From a virus (lineage: Duplodnaviria > Heunggongvirae > Uroviricota > Caudoviricetes): a stretch of DNA of 64,000 nt. Shown piece by piece: positions 6,097 to 62,794 of this stretch. The notes under the pieces are model-generated. The model did not search any database and had not been told where the DNA came from. It saw nothing but the letters and a program-made list of their open reading frames with translations. The stretch lies in IMG/VR virus record IMGVR_UViG_2537561875_000003. The stretch is one strand, 5' to 3'. The translations under genes were made by a program, and so were the position numbers. The stretch's first letter is position 1. The number at the start of each line of letters is the position of its first letter.

Positions 6097-6173
6097 TGGT
6101 GCACCATTCAGGACTCGAACCTGAAACCGATAGCTTAGAAGGCTATTGCTCTCTCCGGTTGAGCTAATGGCGC
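6097..6173 (-). tRNA. Phage-encoded tRNA-Arg (anticodon UCU)
   Basis: 77-nt cloverleaf by hand: acceptor GCGCCAT/ATGGTGC, anticodon stem ATAGC/GCTAT, loop CUUCUAA, T-loop GTTCGAGTC, CCA end. Confidence 0.8.
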
Positions 6174-6178
6174 TGAAT

Positions 6179-6256
6179 TGGTGCTCGCATCAGGGTTCGA
6201 ACCTGAAATCATCCGATTATGAGTCGGGTGCTTTAACCTTGTTAAGCTATGCGAAC
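6179..6256 (-). tRNA. Phage-encoded tRNA with CAU anticodon (Met or Ile2)
   Basis: Acceptor GTTCGCA/TGCGAGC, anticodon loop CUCAUAA, GGTTCGAACC T-arm, CCA end. Confidence 0.65.
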
Positions 6257-6672: not shown

Positions 6673-7362
6673 TTAATCCAGTTTTGCAAGACTTGAGTCA
6701 AAATTTGTCGCCTTTTGTTGTGAACGTGATCGCGTTACCTGCAACAGGGCATCGCTATCAAGGCGCCGCAAGGTTGTTTTCATCTCCTCCCACCGCTCCG
6801 TAAACGTTTCTGACCAGTTCTTCGGGGTCACTCCGACCAGAGCGGCAAGTTTTTGGTATTCATACGTCTCCCGCCCTGCCAGCTCGGCTTTGACATCCTG
6901 CGCGGCCAGCCAGATGAGTTGACGCAGGCGATCGACTGTTTTCTTTGCAATGCGCACGCCGGCCAGCTTTTCGTAGAATTGCTCCCATGCCCACCGGGTG
7001 ATCGTCTCCTGGTGCTCCCAGCGGATATTGTCGCTGTAGTTCCACAGCAGCCACGATTTCTGATGCTCTTCCAGCGACAGCAGAGCCCGGCGCCAACTGG
7101 CCGTCGAATACTCAACGGGCAGAACGAGAGCGATTGATGAACCCTTAGCGCGGGACTGCTGCCCGGGAATTGGTGGGCTGGATGGGTTTACCATGCGGCC
7201 GGTTACCGGATCGGCTATTTTCTTCCTTCCCCGGCTGCGCGCCGTAGCGGTGAATTGCGCGTTTTCTGCAAAAGCAACCAACTGTCCTTTCGTCGCGCCG
7301 CTCAGATCGGCGGTGGCCACTATCAGCTGCTGGCGAACATACTCAAGATACTGGGTATTCAT
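6673..7362 (-). CDS. Late-gene antiterminator Q-like
   Basis: 229 aa in the Q position (after rusA and nin-region genes, before tRNAs and lysis). N-terminal [13 protein letters not shown] resembles lambdoid Q. Confidence 0.5.
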   Translation of the reverse strand: MNTQYLEYVRQQLIVATADLSGATKGQLVAFAENAQFTATARSRGRKKIADPVTGRMVNPSSPPIPGQQSRAKGSSIALVLPVEYSTASWRRALLSLEEHQKSWLLWNYSDNIRWEHQETITRWAWEQFYEKLAGVRIAKKTVDRLRQLIWLAAQDVKAELAGRETYEYQKLAALVGVTPKNWSETFTERWEEMKTTLRRLDSDALLQVTRSRSQQKATNFDSSLAKLD

Positions 7363-12195: not shown

Positions 12196-12929
12196 GACCG
12201 CCCTCTCCCCAGTCCAAATTTCGCCCGAATTTCTGCGATTTTGTTTAACCCCTGCTCCTGACTTAATGGCCGACCGCCAAGTTTTGGAATCTGCTTAACC
12301 GGCTCTGGAATCGCTTCTCCTGCGTTTAAACGACGCACCATACGCATCAGCTCATCCTGCGCCTTACGACGCAGCTCAGCGTCACTGAGGCCGTTTGCGC
12401 GCATGTCTGCGTACAGGCCAGTAACCATCCAGTAGCAGGCTTTGTGCTTCAGCGTTACCGGTGTGACGTTGTGCTCTGGCCACGGATAGGATTCAGCATC
12501 CGGGTATTGCCCGCGGGTCCTGCAGTACTGGTAAACCATATCGACCAGCTCCACTGCATCCGGCAGTCCGGAAGATACGGCTGATTCCGATTTGCACCAG
12601 GCGACAAACTGACCCGGCGATGGCATGAATGGGCGATCCTGTTTGCGGGCAACGCGCATTCCGGCGTTGATTTGCTCCATGGAGACAATCCCGTTTTCCT
12701 TGAACGCCAGGAGCCACTGCCGGCGCATCTCGTTCATCTCCTCGGGTGTTTTGCTGGCCAGCGCCGGAAACACAGCGAGCAACTGGCGGAACAGTTCGTT
12801 GAAGATCTCCGCAGTCTTTGCCGCCTGGCGCTTTACTGCCTGCTCGTCCTGCATTTCAGGAAGCCCGGCAGCCACGCGCTGGAAATTTTCCCGATCGAAG
12901 TTGTGCATGCTTTCAGCGATTGATTTCAT
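12192..12929 (-). CDS. P: Replication protein P (lambda P-like DnaB-helicase loader)
   Basis: Near-colinear similarity to lambda P that I recognise (FDRE...VAWC..ESYPWP...GEAIPEPVKQLP...AEI.AKFGL). Confidence 0.85.
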   Translation of the reverse strand: MKSIAESMHNFDRENFQRVAAGLPEMQDEQAVKRQAAKTAEIFNELFRQLLAVFPALASKTPEEMNEMRRQWLLAFKENGIVSMEQINAGMRVARKQDRPFMPSPGQFVAWCKSESAVSSGLPDAVELVDMVYQYCRTRGQYPDAESYPWPEHNVTPVTLKHKACYWMVTGLYADMRANGLSDAELRRKAQDELMRMVRRLNAGEAIPEPVKQIPKLGGRPLSQEQGLNKIAEIRAKFGLGRGRS

Positions 12930-13954
12930 TCGAGCACCCCGTAAATCCAGTCAGTGTTGTTCAGGTCGACTTTTGGCTTCCAGGCAACCTGAATCCCTGG
13001 CGCGCTGCGCTGCATGGTCAACTTGTCCCACTGCTTGCGCAGCGCATCAGGGCTCAGGATGTTGCGATGCCAGAACGAGTCTTTGCTGGCCCAGTCGTAC
13101 ATGCCGCAGATATTCTGGTGGCTACGATTGTCGATCTGACGCATCAGTCGAACCGTGTTTGACCAAGCGGTCATGTCAGGGGTTTTGCAGGTTGGGTTGA
13201 TCATCCTGACCCTGGAGAAAATCCACTCGGCAACGCGAACGTCTTCGGCGGTTCCCCACTTGCTGCCGCTGGGTGTGTAAACCGCAGCATCAGGATGAGC
13301 AGACAAAAATTTCTTCAGGCGGGCGTCAGAGGATTCGCCAGAATTCTCGGACGAAGATCTTTTAATGTTTTTATTCTTGTTATTACCTTCTTGTTCATGT
13401 TGTGCGGTTGTTTGTGCGGCTTCATGTGCGCCATCATGTGCGGGTACCACCTTCAAACCCGCGCCATTGCTGGACTCGTCATGTGCGCAAGTATGTGCGG
13501 CTTCATGTGCGGCTTCATGTGCGGGTAAATTGTCTGTTTTTTGAGCATATTCTGCAAAATTTGTGATGGTGATCACTCTCCCTTTTTGCTTCTCGCCTTC
13601 GATAGAAATCATCCCTTCGCGCACAAAAACGGCCAGCATTCTCTCCACTGAATCGCGACTAGTAGGATTCCCTTTCCGGTCGCAAAGCTGCAGCCCTAAA
13701 TCGGCCGCTGTGACCACCAGTTGTCCGGGCAGCAGTGACCACTCATGACCTTTGAAAGTCGCTTTGAATGGCTGACGAGCAGCATTAAGCAGCAGGTTTT
13801 CCCACAGGGTTCTGAGGTACACATCTTTTGCCCAGGACTGCTTGAGAACGCTCCGGTACAACGGGATGTAGCCAGATTTCTGGTTTTCCATCCGGTTGCT
13901 CCTGAATTGCCCCGGCGCGGCGCCGGGAAACTTGAGTATTTCTGCGGTGTTCAT
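12926..13954 (-). CDS. O: Replication initiator O-like
   Basis: Upstream of and coupled to P. Contains the iteron array, translated as AHEAAHEAAHTCAHD... Confidence 0.7.
   Translation of the reverse strand: MNTAEILKFPGAAPGQFRSNRMENQKSGYIPLYRSVLKQSWAKDVYLRTLWENLLLNAARQPFKATFKGHEWSLLPGQLVVTAADLGLQLCDRKGNPTSRDSVERMLAVFVREGMISIEGEKQKGRVITITNFAEYAQKTDNLPAHEAAHEAAHTCAHDESSNGAGLKVVPAHDGAHEAAQTTAQHEQEGNNKNKNIKRSSSENSGESSDARLKKFLSAHPDAAVYTPSGSKWGTAEDVRVAEWIFSRVRMINPTCKTPDMTAWSNTVRLMRQIDNRSHQNICGMYDWASKDSFWHRNILSPDALRKQWDKLTMQRSAPGIQVAWKPKVDLNNTDWIYGVLE
13395..13527. repeat. Origin iterons (about 12-bp period, YTCATGTGCGG-like, roughly 8 copies) inside the O gene, followed by an AT-rich stretch at 13528-13570
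   Basis: Direct repeats visible at 13395-13527: ttgtgcggttgtttgtgcggcttcatgtgcgccatcatgtgcgg...catgtgcgcaagtatgtgcggcttcatgtgcggcttcatgtgcgg. Confidence 0.6.
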
Positions 13955-22893: not shown

Positions 22894-23229
22894 ATGGCGT
22901 CTGACAAACCGATAACAGCACAGCAGGCCGCCGATTTGCTCATCGTGTCGGCGCGGGTGATCTATCGTCTCATTGAATCTGGTGAGCTCGCCGGCCGCAA
23001 GGTCGGCAACAAGTACAGAACGACCGAGGCGGCTTGTATTGCATATTTGAAAACCCCGCGCGATCCTGTCATCGCGAACGCGGGTGAACATAAAGGAGAA
23101 GTTTTATGTCAATCACCCTCAGGGGCGGCGTGTGGCACTGTCATTTCTTTACGCCGTCAGGAAAAAGAGTTAGGCGATCTCTTGGCACGGGGGACAAAAA
23201 GCAGGCTCAGGAGCTCCACGACAAGCTGA
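22894..23229 (+). CDS. xis: Excisionase (Xis-like HTH)
   Basis: N-terminal [32 protein letters not shown] is excisionase-like. The ORF overlaps the int start by about 124 nt. Confidence 0.5.
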
Positions 23230-24269
23230 AGGCGGAAGCGTGGCGGGTTGACCAGATCGGAGACCTTCCCGTCAGAACCTTCGAAGAATGCTGCATCAGG
23301 TGGCTGCGGGAAAAAGACCATAAGCGATCGCTGGATGATGACAAAACCAAAATTGAGTTTTGGCTGCAGCATTTTTCCGGCCGTGATGTCTCGAAGATAA
23401 CGGCGGAGGAAGTTCACGAAGCCGTTAACGGGATGATCAACCGTAAGCACCTGCAGGTATGGGAGAGTAAACGCGATGCCGCGGTGAGGAAGGGTAAGCC
23501 GGTTCCTGAGTACAAACCACGGCAGGTTTCTCAGGCGACGAAGGCGCAGCACCTTTCCTTCATTCGGTCCCTTCTCAGGGCCGCCGCGAATGACTGGGGC
23601 TGGATAAAAACAGCCCCTGTTATCAAAACCCGCAAGCCTATCAGTAAGCGGATACGGTGGCTGACCAGAGAAGAAGCTGAGCGGTTGATCGAGTGCATGC
23701 CGGAGAGCATTAAGCCAGTGGTGATATTTGCACTGGCAACCGGCCTGCGCCGCTCAAACATCATCGGGCTTGAGTGGCAGCAGGTCGATATGCAGAGAAA
23801 GGTTGCATGGGTAAATCCGGAGAACGCAAAAGCGGGCAAGGCGATTGGCGTAGCTCTGAATGATACCGCATGCAGGGTATTAAGGGATCAGATAGGGAAG
23901 CACTCCCGGTGGGTATTCGTTCATACCACGGCAAAACATCGCTCTGACGGAACGCTGACGCCCGCGGTGAGAAAAATGCGGGTGGATGACAATAACGCCT
24001 GGCGCGCCGGGCTGAAAAAAGCGGGGATAGAGGATTTCCGTTTTCACGACCTCCGGCACACCTGGGCGAGCTGGCTGATTCAGTCCGGCGTCCCGCTTTC
24101 TGTTTTGCAGGAAATGGGCGGATGGGAGAGCATCGAGATGGTGCGTCGGTATGCTCACCTGGCGCCGAACCATTTGACCGAACACGCACGGAAAATTGAC
24201 GCCATTTTTGGCGCTAGCGACACAAATACGACACAAGGAGGAAATCAGGCTGGTTTAAAACTGGCGTAA
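23106..24269 (+). CDS. int: Tyrosine integrase, DLP12 IntD-like (argU-specific family)
   Basis: 387 aa, highly similar along its length to IntD as I recall it (...[44 protein letters not shown]). It converges on the tRNA 3'-end copy. Confidence 0.9.
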
Positions 24270-24280
24270 GTTACTGTTTC

Positions 24281-24330
24281 TTAATGGTACGCCCTACAGG
24301 GTTCGAACCTGTGACCTACGGCTTAGAAGG
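24281..24330. repeat. att core copy: 50 bp identical to the 3' end of tRNA-Arg(UCU). It is the junction between prophages A and B.
   Basis: ttaatggtacgccctacagggttcgaacctgtgacctacggcttagaagg is identical to 62714-62763. Confidence 0.85.
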
Positions 24331-24474
24331 GCGAAAATCTTTGATTCCTTTCAATTACCATCGATTTCATTAAATTTCACTTCATTGTTTTTAAAAGAGT
24401 TTATAGTGTTGAATGATTTCATACAGTCTCTTATCATTTCATCACAACTTGACCCGTAACCTGACCTTAAAACT

Positions 24475-25695
24475 ATGGCTAGCACTCTTTTAACAGACAG
24501 CAAAATCAGGGGCCTGAAGCCTAAAAATTCAGCCTATTATACCTGGCAAGCAGCCGCAACCCGCGGCACTGGCAGACTCGGTGTAAAGACTTACCCATCA
24601 GGAAGAAAAACATTCGTCTATCGGTATTTCATCAGCGGAAAAGAGAAGTTTATCGGTCTGGGCGACTTCCCTACCCTTACTCTTTCCGATGCAACCGAGA
24701 AAGCCAGAGCCGCTGCGGCCAGCATATCCGATCCCGCTAAGGCCCAGGTAGAACATGCATCACTTAAAAAGCTGTTTGATGATTATATTGCAGACCAAAA
24801 GGCCAGAGGCAAGCGATCTTACGACAAAACACAAAACCGAATTAATCAGGTTCTGGCAAGCCCGCATATCACCCCAGAGATGCCAGCAAAAGATGTAACC
24901 CCGGACCATATCAAACGCATACTTTCAGAATTTATTGCGAGGGATGCGCGCGCCGGCGCAAACAAAGTACGTTCGAATCTGCATGCCATTTTTAACTTTG
25001 GCCTGTTTGCAGATAACGACCCTGCGAATATCGATAAGAAAACAGTTTATGGTCTGGATCGCAACCCGGTGGCCGCGGTCCCATCGCAGCGCGGAGCAGA
25101 TAAAGCCCTTGACCGATTTTTATCATGGGATGAATTATCTGCGCTGCTGGCAGTCCTTTCCCGCCCAGCAGAAGCAATCCCAATGCATCCCGATTTCGTT
25201 CAGCTGCTGTTGTGTTGTTTACACACAGCAGGGCAGCGCCCGTGGGAGCTAATGACAAACACAAAAGATAACTGGGATAAGAAAGAAAAAACGTTGACGG
25301 TGCCGCCGCACATATCTAAAACGGGTGATTATCATGTCATTCCGTTGAGTGATTCAGCGACGCAGATCCTGCATGTGATGGAAAAACGCTATCCCAAATC
25401 CGATTTTCTTTTCCCCGCGGATACGGCTGAAGGGCATCTTCTTTCAGCTGAGTTCGGGAAGCAGGTAAGAAAATTTTGTGAACGGGAGCCATTTAATAAA
25501 TTCACGCCGAGGGACGTTCGGCGCACATTTAAAACGCTCGCCGGCGCGATGGGTGTAAGCACCGAAATGCGCGACAGATTGCAGAACCATAAAAGAGCCG
25601 GCGTATCAGCCAAGCACTATGACCGATACGACTACATTAAGGAAAAACGCGAAATTATATCGCAATGGGAAGAAAAGTTACTTTCACTCTGTTGA
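24475..25695 (+). CDS. int: Tyrosine integrase, P4-like (DUF4102 arm-binding N-terminus)
   Basis: 406 aa with an N-terminal LTDSKIRGLKPK arm-binding domain and a C-terminal catalytic R...H..R..Y region. Confidence 0.85.
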   Translation: MASTLLTDSKIRGLKPKNSAYYTWQAAATRGTGRLGVKTYPSGRKTFVYRYFISGKEKFIGLGDFPTLTLSDATEKARAAAASISDPAKAQVEHASLKKLFDDYIADQKARGKRSYDKTQNRINQVLASPHITPEMPAKDVTPDHIKRILSEFIARDARAGANKVRSNLHAIFNFGLFADNDPANIDKKTVYGLDRNPVAAVPSQRGADKALDRFLSWDELSALLAVLSRPAEAIPMHPDFVQLLLCCLHTAGQRPWELMTNTKDNWDKKEKTLTVPPHISKTGDYHVIPLSDSATQILHVMEKRYPKSDFLFPADTAEGHLLSAEFGKQVRKFCEREPFNKFTPRDVRRTFKTLAGAMGVSTEMRDRLQNHKRAGVSAKHYDRYDYIKEKREIISQWEEKLLSLC

Positions 25696-41167: not shown

Positions 41168-41463
41168 TATTTTTTAGCCTTCTTCTCTGGCACAGTTTCC
41201 GGCTGTTCCGGCTGTTCCGGCTGTTCCGGCTGTTCCGGCTGTTCCGGCTGTTCCGGCTGTTCCGGCTGTTCCGGCTGTTCCGGCTGTTCCGGCTGTTCCG
41301 GCTGTTCCGGCTGTTCCGGCTGCGCAGAATTATCAACATCTACCAGCCGTGCATAACCTTTTTGAACCAACTCACGGCCATGCTGTTCCAGCGTCTCCAG
41401 TGACTCGCCTTCAGTCACCACTACCCCACCAAAATAAACTGGTTTCACCGCGATAAGTTTCAT
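41167..41463 (-). CDS. Small head-region protein with a (PEQ)n repeat of about 13 units
   Basis: 98 aa between the major capsid gene and the connector gene; contains the tandem repeat. Confidence 0.5.
   Translation of the reverse strand: MKLIAVKPVYFGGVVVTEGESLETLEQHGRELVQKGYARLVDVDNSAQPEQPEQPEQPEQPEQPEQPEQPEQPEQPEQPEQPEQPEQPETVPEKKAKK
41195..41330. repeat. Perfect tandem repeat of a 9-bp unit (ccggctgtt), roughly 13-15 copies
   Basis: Directly visible at 41195-41330. The frame-shifted ORF giving SRNSRNS is an artefact of the same repeat. Confidence 0.9.
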
Positions 41464-41505: not shown

Positions 41506-42723
41506 TTACTGGCCGCCGGAAGCCGGCACAGTAAAGGAGCCATAAATAAATGCTTCAGGGCGTTTTACTGCTAACGCCAGACGCTCTTCACAGCGAATAG
41601 AGATCATGTTTTTCTCGAAGTCATCGCTGTTCTCCGTCGAGATCACAACGTTTGCGTCTTCGCGGTCGAAAAGCTGTGCCGCAGCATTAAATGCACCTGT
41701 CAGGAACTTGCCCTGGAAAGCTGCTGCTTCAGTGGCGACAACCGGAAGCCCCCACAGCGTCGGCCCCGTCAACGCAGCCGGGTTCGCCAGGATATAGCGC
41801 CCCAGGGTGTCTTTAGTCAGTTCGATTTTCGCCCAGTCCATGAAGTGCAGGACGTGACCGGATGCAGGGAATCGGGCAAGTTGAGCCTGAAGCATTGCCA
41901 GGCGCAGATCGTCAATACCGTTCTGCTGTTCAACGGCAAATGCCGCGCTGTAAGCCGTGGCCTGCGGCACGATGCCATGGAGGTGAGCGCCAGTGCCATC
42001 ACCAAACAGAATCTCCTGCTCTTCGACGTACTTAAGGCCGTAACGCATTTCCGCATCAATCATGGACTGCAACTGGGCGAAGTCGTCCAGAATCTGCTTG
42101 GATGCCTTGAACATGTGCGCGATGGTTGTCACTGGAGTGATTTTCGGCGTGAACTCAATATTGCTGTACGGCTTGGTTGTGTTCTCCGGTACCACTGCCG
42201 CAGCATTGGTAAAGCCGGTCTGCTGCACCCAGAAAATGGCCGGTGAACCCGTACGGCCTGGCGCGATAAGATCGCGAATAAATAACCGCTGCTTTGGCGC
42301 TACATCAATACCCGGCAGTCGTTGTGGTTCAACAACCCCCTCAGGAACGTCACTGGAAATCAGCGCAGCTTTTACAGGAACAGAAATACGCTTGTTCCCT
42401 TCGATGCTGGACGACAGAACTTTAATGGCTTCAGCAGAGATAACCTGCTGGCCGACAGTTTCAATAACCTGTTTTGCGTTTGCCAGCGGCATCTGTGCAA
42501 CATGCTGCTCCAGTTCGCCCAGCGCAGCCTTCAGAGTCTTTTCGGCTTCTTTCAGCGCATTAAACTCAGTCGCCATTTTGTCCACGGTTTCTTTGGTTTC
42601 CGCCGACAATTTGCCGTTCTTTTTCGCTTCAGTCAGCGCTTCTTCCGCTTTGGCGTTAAATTTGCCGGTTGCTTCTTCAATGGAAGCGGTGACTTTTTTC
42701 AGAATCTCGTTTACATCAGACAT
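41506..42723 (-). CDS. Major capsid protein (HK97 fold)
   Basis: 405 aa; N-terminal delta-domain-like coiled coil then HK97-fold body; follows the protease. Confidence 0.85.
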   Translation of the reverse strand: MSDVNEILKKVTASIEEATGKFNAKAEEALTEAKKNGKLSAETKETVDKMATEFNALKEAEKTLKAALGELEQHVAQMPLANAKQVIETVGQQVISAEAIKVLSSSIEGNKRISVPVKAALISSDVPEGVVEPQRLPGIDVAPKQRLFIRDLIAPGRTGSPAIFWVQQTGFTNAAAVVPENTTKPYSNIEFTPKITPVTTIAHMFKASKQILDDFAQLQSMIDAEMRYGLKYVEEQEILFGDGTGAHLHGIVPQATAYSAAFAVEQQNGIDDLRLAMLQAQLARFPASGHVLHFMDWAKIELTKDTLGRYILANPAALTGPTLWGLPVVATEAAAFQGKFLTGAFNAAAQLFDREDANVVISTENSDDFEKNMISIRCEERLALAVKRPEAFIYGSFTVPASGGQ

Positions 42724-62462: not shown

Positions 62463-62645
62463 ATGGCGACTCGATATATTGGCATTAAAGAAATGTGCAC
62501 GCTGACCGGAAAGAGTAAGCCGACCTTGTGGAGGATGTACGCGAAGAGGAAGGAATTTCCGGCACCAGAGAGAACGCCCAGCGGAATTTTTCTCGGATGG
62601 CCCGAAACGGTTTACGAAGCCTGGGTAAACAAAGCAAAAACCTAA
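62463..62645 (+). CDS. AlpA-family excisionase-like regulator
   Basis: YIGIKEMCTLTGKSKPTLWRM...FPAP...LGW matches the AlpA family. GAGG RBS. Confidence 0.65.
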   Translation: MATRYIGIKEMCTLTGKSKPTLWRMYAKRKEFPAPERTPSGIFLGWPETVYEAWVNKAKT

Positions 62646-62713
62646 TACTTGACCCGTTACCTGACCTGCTCATGTAGCGGGTTTTCTTATTATAATAGTT
62701 AACTTATTGATTA

Positions 62714-62763
62714 TTAATGGTACGCCCTACAGGGTTCGAACCTGTGACCTACGGCTTAGAAGG
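62714..62763. repeat. att core copy (attR-like) inside the 3' end of the intact tRNA-Arg
   Basis: Identical to 24281-24330. Confidence 0.85.
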
Positions 62764-62794
62764 CCGTTGCTCTATCCAGCTGAGCTAAGGGCGC
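62718..62794 (-). tRNA. argU: tRNA-Arg (anticodon UCU), argU-like chromosomal integration target
   Basis: 77-nt cloverleaf: GCGCCCT acceptor, D-loop AGCTGGATAGAGC, anticodon stem-loop ACGGC-CUUCUAA-GCCGU, T-arm ACAGGTTCGAACCCTGT, ACCA end. Close to E. coli argU. Confidence 0.9.

What the first reader, a model, noticed from the sequence alone, without database searches (positions are those of the whole stretch)
24331..24474. Integrase and AlpA/excisionase of prophage B sit at opposite prophage ends; shared 19-bp arm-type repeat flanks both junctions
CTTGACCCGTAACCTGACC (24448-24466, 9 bp upstream of the P4-type int start) recurs as CTTGACCCGTTACCTGACC at 62648-62666, between the alpA stop and the att core. 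ATTTCAT-type repeats fill 24340-24440. This fits a circular phage in which attP lies between alpA and int (alpA - arm site - core - arm site - int). Integration then separates the directionality factor from the integrase. The 19-mers are candidate integrase arm sites or AlpA sites.
Basis: partly seen in the sequence, partly recalled or inferred. Interest (0 to 1): 0.5.

Follow-up and report, generated by a model that had tools for sequence, protein, structure and literature searches.

The report
P4-type attP arm sites, Klebsiella prophage
The repeated 19-mer is real and is most likely the pair of integrase "arm" binding sites found on each side of a phage attachment site, laid out as in the well-studied phage P4 and the E. 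coli KplE1 prophage, so it is a clear but ordinary example of a known design.

Summary
CTTGACCCGTAACCTGACC (24448-24466) recurs with one mismatch at 62648-62666, same strand, and none is expected by chance. One copy ends 8 nt (not 9) before the int ATG. The other starts 2 nt after the alpA-like stop.

The window holds a complete 38.4-kb Klebsiella pneumoniae prophage. It is bounded by a 50-bp direct repeat of the 3' part of tRNA-Arg(UCU), with a lambdoid prophage in tandem on its left.

Joining the two ends gives an attP that aligns colinearly with the intact attP of the free Providencia phage PSTCR3.

Each 19-mer is two 8-nt half-sites (ACYTGACC) 12 nt apart. Relatives keep this tandem pair at both positions, and where the sequence changes, both arms of the same element change together.

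P4 (annotated "attP arm sequence repeats") and KplE1 have the same layout: a contiguous 12-nt pair on each arm, and the int-side pair just after a -10 box.

The 19-mers are therefore most likely Int arm-type sites that also act as an operator for int. The RTTTCAY repeats, 10-nt phased in two blocks, are most likely the sites of the AlpA/Vis-like excision factor. Binding was not tested.

This is a new member of a known kind; interest is low to moderate.

The parts
24281..24330 (-). Left att core copy. This is a displaced 3' fragment of tRNA-Arg(UCU) (tRNA bases 24285-24330) and is identical to 62714-62763.
   Evidence: exact repeat with 0 expected by chance. It lies between prophage A int (stop at 24269) and the prophage B P' arm.
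24343..24380 (+). RTTTCAY repeat block 1 of the P' arm. It has four units at a 10-nt period: GATTCC and ATTACC (degenerate), then GATTTCAT and ATTTCAC. These are candidate binding sites for the AlpA/Vis-like RDF.
   Evidence: The TTTC cores are conserved columns in 14 related P' arms. The position and two-block layout parallel the TorI sites of KplE1.
24409..24437 (+). Predicted int promoter: TTGAAT, 17 nt, TATCAT.
   Evidence: The -35 TTG and the TATCAT -10 are conserved across relatives. P4 has TATCAT directly before its P' arm pair.
24415..24442 (+). RTTTCAY repeat block 2. It has three units at a 10-nt period (GATTTCAT, GTCTCT degenerate, ATTTCAT) and overlaps the promoter spacer and the -10 box.
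24447..24467 (+). P' arm tandem pair: ACTTGACC (24447-24454) and ACCTGACC (24459-24466), 12 nt start to start. This is the candidate Int arm-type site pair and int operator. It lies between the -10 box and the ATG.
24475..25695 (+). int: a 406-aa P4/SXT-type tyrosine integrase with an N-terminal arm-type DNA-binding domain.
   Evidence: Arm-DNA-bind_3, Phage_int_M, Phage_integrase. (PDB 3JTZ and 3JU0 arm-binding domains). (23% identity to IntS, 22% to P4 Int). (catalytic motifs).
62463..62645 (+). alpA-like gene: a 60-aa winged-helix protein and candidate recombination directionality factor. It is the last gene of a rightward operon.
   Evidence: PHROG 66, 6.6e-6. (P4 Vis, 27% identity, E 7e-6). 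(model pLDDT 83; best fold match is the GIsul2 excisionase, TM 0.71-0.74). (NCBI name 'AlpA family phage regulatory protein').
62647..62667 (+). P arm tandem pair: ACTTGACC (62647-62654) and ACCTGACC (62659-62666).
62651..62692 (+). Hairpin (stem 62651-62660 paired with 62674-62683) followed by a T-rich run. This is the likely intrinsic terminator of the alpA operon. Its 5' arm overlaps the arm sites.
   Evidence: -18.3 kcal/mol, z = -4.46.. A stem is kept with different sequences in relatives.
62700..62712 (-). IHF-like site AATCAATAAGTTA on the minus strand, lying between the P arm pair and the core.
   Evidence: My reading against the IHF consensus WATCAANNNNTTR (from established knowledge). 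The TAAC...TTGATT columns are conserved in 14 P arms, including the T2 type.
62714..62794 (-). Right att core copy (62714-62763) within the intact tRNA-Arg(UCU) gene (62718-62794).

Best explanation
The two 19-mers are the P and P' arm-type binding sites of the prophage's P4-type integrase. Each is a pair of 8-nt half-sites (ACYTGACC) 12 nt apart.

In the circular phage the order is: alpA, P pair, terminator hairpin, IHF-like site, 50-bp core (antisense 3' half of tRNA-Arg UCU), RTTTCAY block 1, int promoter overlapped by RTTTCAY block 2, P' pair, int.

The N-terminal arm-binding domain of Int binds the pairs while its catalytic domain binds the core, so bent DNA is bridged into an intasome. 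Because the P' pair lies between the -10 box and the int ATG, Int bound there should also repress its own promoter.

The RTTTCAY repeats, phased one helical turn apart on the int-side arm only, are most likely where the AlpA/Vis-like excision factor polymerises. That would bend the arm for excision and also shut down int.

Integration splits attP, so int and the excision factor end up at opposite prophage ends under separate control.

Shown here: the sequence layout, its conservation, the concerted change of both arms, the domain content of the proteins, and the match to free-phage attP.

Inferred: which protein binds which repeat, the repression of int, and the roles of IHF and the terminator.
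For: - The motif is non-random and strand-matched.
- An intact attP with the same order exists in the free phage PSTCR3.
- A tandem 12-nt pair abuts the int start and the alpA stop in relatives with 65-100% Int identity.
- The motif occurs as one int-side and one alpA/tRNA-side copy per genome in Proteus, Providencia and Xenorhabdus.
- The 3-4 nt between the half-sites vary while the half-sites are near-invariant.
- Contig IMGVR_UViG_2869557129_000002 has ACGACACCCGTAAGAGCACC before int and ACGACACCCGTTAGAACACC after alpA. Both arms have changed together.
- Integrases only 30-40% identical still have 12-nt tandem repeats before int. Some keep the same TGACC motif and others have different sequences.
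- Int has an Arm-DNA-bind_3 domain that matches solved arm-binding domains.
- The P4 GenBank record annotates contiguous 12-nt 'attP arm sequence repeats' on both sides of the core. The int-side pair comes just after TATCAT and 15 nt before the int ATG.
- KplE1 has the GGGTAAAA motif as a 12-nt tandem pair at the torI stop and up to the intS ATG (my reading); the paper maps the int-side (P') copies as IntS arm-type sites. TorI sites lie in two blocks between the core and the promoter, and both proteins repress intS.
- In Pectobacterium the int-P' arm-core cassette is inverted next to alpA. The motif stays with int, and alpA is followed by a plain terminator.
- In a Pseudidiomarina genome and a related MAG the same motif flanks a different tRNA, and the gene next to the P arm is not alpA-like.
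- The Int N-domain of the changed-motif clade is less conserved than the rest of the protein. In same-motif relatives the reverse holds.
Against: - No binding data exist for this family.
- The AlpA-like protein also carries substitutions specific to the changed-motif clade in its predicted recognition helix (KSKPT to KSHPT).
- The N-domain residue correlation is weak once distant relatives are included.
- The RTTTCAY repeats are more widely conserved than the tandem motif. One could read this as the conserved Int N-domain recognising them instead.
- The assignment of P4 and KplE1 sites rests on a database annotation, one open paper, and my reading of their sequences. The primary P4 papers were not available.
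- The int start has no clear Shine-Dalgarno sequence, and the transcription start is only predicted.
Confidence: 0.75

Rival explanations
1. The tandem 19-mers are binding sites of the AlpA-like excision factor (an operator or RDF site on both arms). The RTTTCAY repeats would then be the Int arm-type sites.
For: - AlpA of the changed-motif clade has changes in its predicted recognition helix that track the motif.
- One copy directly follows the alpA gene in most elements.
- RTTTCAY repeats persist across integrases as low as 32% identical, and the Int N-domain is the most conserved part of the protein at long range.
- wHTH RDFs can bind direct repeats as multimers (PMC11963761).
Against: - RDF sites characterised elsewhere are direct repeats about one helical turn apart (PMC7498355). 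In KplE1 they sit on the int-side arm in two blocks. That is the RTTTCAY pattern, not the 12-nt pair found on both arms.
- Heterobivalent integrases need arm sites on both arms (λ paradigm, from established knowledge), and RTTTCAY is absent from the P arm.
- P4 and KplE1 both place the 12-nt pairs at these same positions. The P4 record annotates them as attP arm repeats, and the KplE1 paper maps the int-side copies as IntS arm-type sites.
- The motif stays with int, not alpA, in Pectobacterium.
- It occurs without an adjacent alpA gene in Pseudidiomarina.
Confidence: 0.15
2. The repeat is a transcription signal and not a recombination site. TTGACC would be a -35 box on the int side, and the alpA-side copy would be conserved only as part of the alpA terminator stem.
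For: - The motif contains TTGACC.
- The P-arm copy overlaps a strong hairpin.
Against: - No -10 box lies at a usable distance, and the int ATG is 8 nt away.
- A better, conserved promoter lies upstream.
- The int-side copy has no hairpin partner.
- The hairpin sequence varies between relatives while the half-sites stay fixed.
- This reading does not explain the concerted change of both arms.
Confidence: 0.03
3. The 19-mers bind another factor, such as the phage repressor or a host protein. This would couple recombination to the lysis-lysogeny state.
For: Nothing specific. It is not excluded because no binding data exist.
Against: - The motif occurs nowhere else in the prophage, for example not at early promoters.
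- The motif varies between close relatives living in similar hosts, which argues against a host factor.
Confidence: 0.05

Closest known systems
Satellite phage P4 attP/int/vis (Pierson & Kahn 1987 arm repeats as annotated in NC_001609; Vis excisionase)
   Same: - A P4-type integrase with an arm-binding N-domain.
- The core lies in the 3' end of a tRNA.
- Each arm has two contiguous 12-nt direct repeats in the same orientation.
- The int-side pair directly follows a TATCAT -10 box and precedes the int ATG by a few nt.
- Int represses its own promoter (cited in PMC2951348, and PMC7286903).
- The AlpA-like protein is a detectable homologue of Vis.
   Different: - Int is only 22% identical.
- The arm motif is ACYTGACC here and TGGGGGCA in P4.
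- The tRNA target is Arg(UCU) here and Leu in P4 (PMC7286903).
- P4 has extra inverted copies over the int start; none is seen here.
- In P4, vis is about 4.7 kb from attP. Here it is the gene abutting the P arm.
- This element is a 38-kb tailed phage, not a satellite.
KplE1 (CPS-53)/HK620/Sf6 recombination module: IntS, TorI, argW (Panis et al. 2007, 2010)
   Same: - The RDF gene and int flank attP and end up at opposite prophage ends.
- A 12-nt tandem pair of the arm-type motif sits at the RDF stop codon, and the same motif runs up to the int ATG.
- The int promoter is embedded in the int-side arm.
- Short repeats phased at 10 nt, in two blocks between the core and the promoter, are the RDF sites.
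- int is repressed by both proteins.
   Different: - Int is 23% identical to IntS, and there is no sequence similarity to TorI.
- The site sequences differ.
- The target is tRNA-Arg(UCU), not argW(CCU).
- The core is in the opposite orientation relative to the genes. Here int lies beside the displaced tRNA fragment and the RDF beside the intact tRNA. In KplE1 it is the other way round.
Providencia phage PSTCR3 (MW057855)
   Same: It is the only isolated phage with a close relative of this module. Int is 71% identical, and attP is intact and colinear with the same motif on both arms.
   Different: - It has a different host genus.
- Its half-sites are both ACTTGACCCG.
- Its leader before int is longer.
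- The one paper found that mentions the phage concerns phage treatment of biofilms; it was not read, and the GenBank record annotates no att feature in the stretch examined.

Membership tests
P4/SXT-type heterobivalent tyrosine integrase with attP arm repeats | N-terminal arm-type DNA-binding domain (DUF4102 / Arm-DNA-bind_3), plus core-binding and catalytic domains | tested here: met
   PF13356 at 4.8e-13, PF22022, PF00589. PDB 3JTZ/3RMP at 2.6e-6 and 3JU0.
P4/SXT-type heterobivalent tyrosine integrase with attP arm repeats | Catalytic residues R-K-H-R-H-Y | tested here: inconclusive
   Arg I (GQRP), Lys (SKTG), Arg II, His (NH) and Tyr (KHY) align with P4 Int and IntS. The His of the HxxR box is Arg (RDVRR) throughout this clade. 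The element is evidently active in nature, since precise att duplications and a free phage relative exist.
P4/SXT-type heterobivalent tyrosine integrase with attP arm repeats | The core is identical to the 3' part of a tRNA gene, so the tRNA is rebuilt on integration | tested here: met
   a 50-bp exact repeat, with an intact tRNA-Arg(UCU) at the right junction.
P4/SXT-type heterobivalent tyrosine integrase with attP arm repeats | The same short repeat lies on both arms in direct orientation, as contiguous 12-nt units | tested here: met
   P4 reference. Conservation and concerted change.
P4/SXT-type heterobivalent tyrosine integrase with attP arm repeats | The Int N-domain binds the repeats | not testable with these tools
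   This needs EMSA or footprinting, or a protein-DNA structure prediction.
KplE1-type recombination module (sensu Panis et al.) | int and the RDF gene flank attP, and the int promoter overlaps the int-side att arm | tested here: met
   The promoter is predicted and conserved, but it has not been mapped.
KplE1-type recombination module (sensu Panis et al.) | A highly conserved IntS/TorI module inserted at argW | tested here: not met
   (23% identity to IntS). (no similarity to TorI). (the target is tRNA-Arg UCU). The core orientation is inverted. The element works like this module but is not a member of it.
AlpA/Vis family of winged-helix RDF/regulators | Match to Pfam Phage_AlpA (PF05930) or an NCBIfam model above the cut-off | tested here: not met
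   only HTH_17 at E 0.0014 (19.3 bits against a cut-off of 27). The PSTCR3 homologue hits PF05930 at 0.052; no NCBIfam hit.
AlpA/Vis family of winged-helix RDF/regulators | Detectable homology to a characterised member, and an excisionase-type winged-helix fold | tested here: met
   P4 Vis at 27% identity over 52 aa, E 7e-6 in a pairwise comparison. PHROG 66 at 6.6e-6; pLDDT 83; GIsul2 excisionase at TM 0.71/0.74 and RdfS at TM 0.72. The Foldseek E-values are only about 0.1 because the protein is small.
AlpA/Vis family of winged-helix RDF/regulators | The protein is required for excision and binds att DNA | not testable with these tools
   This needs genetics and biochemistry.

The most novel reading that the evidence does not exclude
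Across the integrase clade sampled here (30-100% identical to this Int), and also in P4 and KplE1, the arm sites keep a fixed geometry. There are two contiguous 12-nt units on each arm, and the int-side pair sits between the -10 box and the ATG. The 8-nt recognition sequence, however, drifts (TGACC, aCACC, GTCACC, TGTCAC, CGACAC, CAGCCCC, TAAGCAG, TGGGGGCA, GGGTAAAA). If the few N-domain strand residues that change with it (for example R12/R51/F53 to K/K/H) form a readable code, arm specificity could be predicted and reprogrammed. The same sites would also serve three roles at once: intasome scaffold, int operator and part of the alpA terminator. That would couple transcription of the excision factor to intasome assembly.
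Probability: 0.25. Interest if true: 0.45.

Novelty: new member of a known kind. Interest (0 to 1): 0.25.

Why it matters
It gives a complete, testable map of the attachment site of a widespread but unstudied prophage family of Klebsiella, Proteus, Providencia, Xenorhabdus and relatives. These prophages insert at tRNA-Arg(UCU), often in tandem with a lambdoid prophage.

The map predicts the exact excision junction, the operator of int, and where the excision factor should bind. That is useful for prophage annotation, for curing or induction experiments, and for anyone wishing to use this integrase as a tool.

It does not change what is known about how such systems work.

Tried and rejected
1. 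Covariation between motif type and protein residues, to decide between Int and AlpA. Both proteins carry clade-specific changes, so the test is suggestive for Int at best.

2. Finding the second arm of the most divergent close relative (L038, ACTTAAGCAG x2). The exact pattern matched once. The loosened pattern gave 54 mostly unrelated hits and no second copy in that contig.

3. Looking for either repeat family elsewhere in the prophage, such as at regulatory targets of AlpA. None was found.

4. Searching E. coli genomes for the region. No match.

5. Searching deposited phages with Int. Only PSTCR3 is close.

6. Reading Szwagierczak et al. 2009 on arm-binding domain structures. The paper is not held. 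The primary P4 papers (Pierson & Kahn 1987, Calì 2004, Piazzolla 2006) were reachable only through citing papers and the GenBank annotation.

7. TTGACC as a -35 box. Rejected because there is no -10 box and no room before the ATG.

8. The tRNA-Arg at 6097-6173 as a third att copy. Rejected: it is a different tRNA-Arg(UCU) gene (61% identity) carried by lambdoid prophage A downstream of its Q gene. The other end of prophage A lies outside the window.

Full report
**The observation**

The 19-mer CTTGACCCGTAACCTGACC lies at 24448-24466 on the + strand. CTTGACCCGTTACCTGACC lies at 62648-62666 on the same strand. These are the only matches in the window at up to three mismatches on either strand, and none is expected in shuffled sequence. 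The similarity extends to 21 nt (24447-24467 and 62647-62667).

The integrase ORF starts at 24475, so the gap is 8 nt, not 9. The alpA-like ORF is 62463-62645, and the second copy starts two bases after its stop codon.

**The setting**

- A tRNA-Arg(UCU) gene lies at 62718-62794 on the minus strand.
- Its 3' 46 nt plus four more bases are repeated exactly at 24281-24330. This is a 50-bp identity block with 0 expected by chance.
- Between the two copies lie genes for terminase, portal, major head protein, tape measure, tail and tail-fibre proteins, primase, helicase and an anti-repressor. The region 24331-62713 is therefore a complete siphovirus-type prophage of about 38.4 kb.
- To its left lies a lambdoid prophage. 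It has Q, an O replication gene with iterons, a CI-like repressor and an adjacent xis-int pair whose int stops at 24269. It runs off the left end of the window.
- The exact Int and AlpA-like proteins are on record from Klebsiella pneumoniae.

**The reconstructed attP is real**

Providencia phage PSTCR3 is a deposited circular phage genome with an integrase 71% identical to this one. It carries, on one molecule and in this order:

1. an alpA-like gene;
2. AACTTGACCCGTTACTTGACCCG;
3. a hairpin with a T-run;
4. the tRNA-Arg 3' sequence;
5. ATTTCAT-type repeats;
6. TTGCAT-17-TATCAT;
7. TACTTGACCCGTTACTTGACCCG;
8. int.

Both window junctions align colinearly with it. This includes the bases GCG that follow GAAGG on the phage side, where the tRNA has CCG.

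**Anatomy of the 19-mer**

It is two 8-nt half-sites, ACTTGACC and ACCTGACC, 12 nt apart start to start.

In 14 related int-side arms and 14 alpA-side arms the half-sites are almost invariant, while the three or four bases between them vary. That is what two separately recognised sites should look like. It argues against conservation for coding or RNA-structure reasons.

Among 53 stretches in the genome collection that contain the motif, those from Proteus (seven species), Providencia, Xenorhabdus, Arsenophonus, Mixta and Pantoea all lie either just before an int homologue or just after an alpA homologue followed by tRNA-Arg. Where both ends of an element were recovered (six Proteus species, Providencia and Xenorhabdus hominickii), there is one of each per genome. 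By my estimate about 17 chance hits are expected in 596 Gb. These account for the hits inside ORFs of unrelated phyla.

**Concerted change**

In a sub-clade with integrases 67-73% identical, the int-side pair reads ACGACACCCGTAAGAGCACC. In contig IMGVR_UViG_2869557129_000002 the alpA-side pair of the same element reads ACGACACCCGTTAGAACACC. It is followed by the same tRNA core. Pantoea stewartii shows the same alpA-side variant.

Both arms have thus changed in the same way. This is expected if one protein reads both. In these elements the ATTTCAT-type repeats are unchanged, so the two repeat families evolve independently.

**The wider family**

Integrases only 30-40% identical still have 12-nt tandem repeats just before int, after a -10-like box.

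- Same TGACC motif, in two to four copies: a clade about 40% identical, plus Vibrio and Pseudidiomarina.
- Different motifs: ACGTCACC/ACATCACC, ACTGTCAC x2, AACGACAC x3, ACAGCCCCC x3, ACTTAAGCAG x2.

In a Pseudidiomarina genome the same motif flanks a different tRNA. There, and in a related MAG, the gene next to the P arm is not alpA-like.

In Pectobacterium the int-arm-core cassette is inverted and lies convergent with alpA. There alpA is followed by a plain terminator with no tandem motif, and the motif remains in front of int. The motif therefore belongs to the int/att unit, not to the alpA gene.

**Other elements of the arms**

Int side:
- A sigma-70-type promoter is predicted at 24409-24437 (TTGAAT-17-TATCAT). 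Its TTG and TATCAT are conserved, which places the tandem pair between the -10 box and the ATG.
- RTTTCAY units form two blocks with an exact 10-nt period. Block 1 is 24343-24380. Block 2 is 24415-24442 and overlaps the promoter spacer and the -10 box. This is the only such cluster in the window.

alpA side:
- A hairpin follows the pair (-18.3 kcal/mol, z = -4.5) and is followed by a T-rich run. A stem is kept with different sequences in relatives.
- Next comes a conserved TAACNNNTTGATT, whose complement fits the IHF consensus. This is my reading.
- Then comes the core.

**The proteins**

Int has Arm-DNA-bind_3, Phage_int_M and Phage_integrase domains. Its N-domain matches the solved arm-type binding domains of the HPI and HAI7 integrases.

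The 60-aa alpA-like protein fails the Pfam and NCBIfam cut-offs. However:
- it matches PHROG 66, 'excisionase and transcriptional regulator';
- it matches P4 Vis in a pairwise comparison (27% identity, E 7e-6);
- its predicted structure (pLDDT 83) is a winged helix whose best matches are the GIsul2 excisionase and RdfS.

**Comparison with known systems**

P4. The GenBank record annotates 12-nt 'attP arm sequence repeats'.
- A contiguous pair (ATTGGGGGCATA ATTGGGGGCATC) lies immediately after TATCAT and 15 nt before the int ATG.
- A second contiguous pair (CAGTGGGGGCAC AAAAGGGGGCAT) lies on the other side of the core.

KplE1.
- The motif GGGTAAAA forms a 12-nt tandem pair overlapping the torI stop, and further copies run up to the intS ATG (my reading).
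- The published work maps the int-side (P') copies as IntS arm-type sites, with P'1 overlapping the -10 box. It places the five TorI sites in two blocks between the core and the promoter, and shows that both proteins repress intS.
- The same paper states that P4 Int represses its own gene by binding DNA at similar positions.
- Other sources state that P4 Vis binds attP DNA and that RDF sites are direct repeats one helical turn apart (abstract of PMC7498355).

From memory, not verified here: Calì et al. 2004 place two Vis boxes between the core and int, and Piazzolla et al. 2006 find the Int N-terminal part sufficient for autorepression.

**Conclusion on mechanism**

By position, geometry, presence on both arms, concerted change and linkage to int, the 19-mers are best read as Int arm-type sites. 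The int-side pair doubles as an operator for int.

The RTTTCAY blocks are best read as the binding sites of the AlpA/Vis-like directionality factor.

I put this at about 0.75. The main rival swaps the two assignments, and I put it at about 0.15. It survives because AlpA also shows clade-specific changes in its recognition helix, and because the N-domain residue correlation is weak at long range.

**Differences from the reference systems**

- The proteins are distant: 22-23% identity to P4 Int and IntS, and no similarity to TorI.
- The site sequences are different.
- The core is oriented antisense to int and alpA. As a result int lies beside the displaced tRNA fragment and alpA beside the intact tRNA, which is the opposite of KplE1.

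None of these changes the logic.

**Verdict**

The finding is a correct observation with a largely correct interpretation. What it describes is a new member of a long-known kind of attachment site.

Noticed in passing
window 25507-25521 (Int residues 345-349); relatives shown: The whole integrase clade (30-100% identical) has R-D-[VIL]-R-R where P4 Int and IntS have the H-x-x-R box. An Arg replaces the conserved catalytic His. The other catalytic residues align normally.
   Followed up: partly
L232-L234 (Pectobacterium): The int-P' arm-core cassette is inverted and lies convergent with alpA, 30 nt after it. alpA is followed by a plain terminator with no tandem motif, and the arm motif stays in front of int.
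   Followed up: partly
window 23106-24330; also L002-L006, L013-L025 and others: A lambdoid prophage with an adjacent xis-int pair sits directly left of the shared att core. The C-terminus of the same kind of integrase precedes the core in most related loci. Tandem double occupancy of tRNA-Arg(UCU) by these two phage types is therefore recurrent.
   Followed up: partly
window 6097-6256: tRNA-Arg(UCU) and tRNA-Met genes are carried by the lambdoid prophage just downstream of its Q antiterminator gene (6673-7362). The Arg tRNA is the same isoacceptor as the tRNA used as the attachment site, but has a different sequence (61% identity).
   Followed up: no
window 41170-41358: About 15 tandem copies of the 9-nt unit TTCCGGCTG, which encode (Gln-Pro-Glu)n on the minus strand. 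They lie next to the major head protein gene (41506-42723) of prophage B.
   Followed up: no
window 13401-13539: TGTGCGG-type repeats at about 12-nt spacing lie inside the replication O-like gene (12926-13954) of the lambdoid prophage. They are probably origin iterons.
   Followed up: no
L181, L191 (Pseudidiomarina woesei); L215 (MAG): The same ACTTGACCCGTTACTTGACC arm motif (three units before int) occurs with an integrase only 36% identical and a different tRNA target. The gene beside the P arm is a 61-aa protein that looks AbrB/MazE-like by eye (L215), or a 377-aa ORF (L181), and not alpA.
   Followed up: partly
L044-L064, L071 (integrases about 40% identical): Two to four direct TTACCTGACCC(A/G) units are followed by one inverted unit (GGGTCAGGTAA) before int. 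This recalls the inverted arm repeat over the P4 int start.
   Followed up: no
window 24267-24284 and 62700-62717: The 18 nt next to the tRNA 3' end are similar (14/18) between the int-proximal arm of prophage A and the P arm of prophage B. In B and its relatives this stretch fits the IHF consensus. The two unrelated integrase types may share a host-factor site.
   Followed up: no
L220 (MAG labelled Bacteroidia): Three tandem units of the same motif lie beside a 589-aa ORF in an unrelated lineage. No int or alpA homologue was detected in the 8-kb stretch held. This may be chance, contamination or another element.
   Followed up: no
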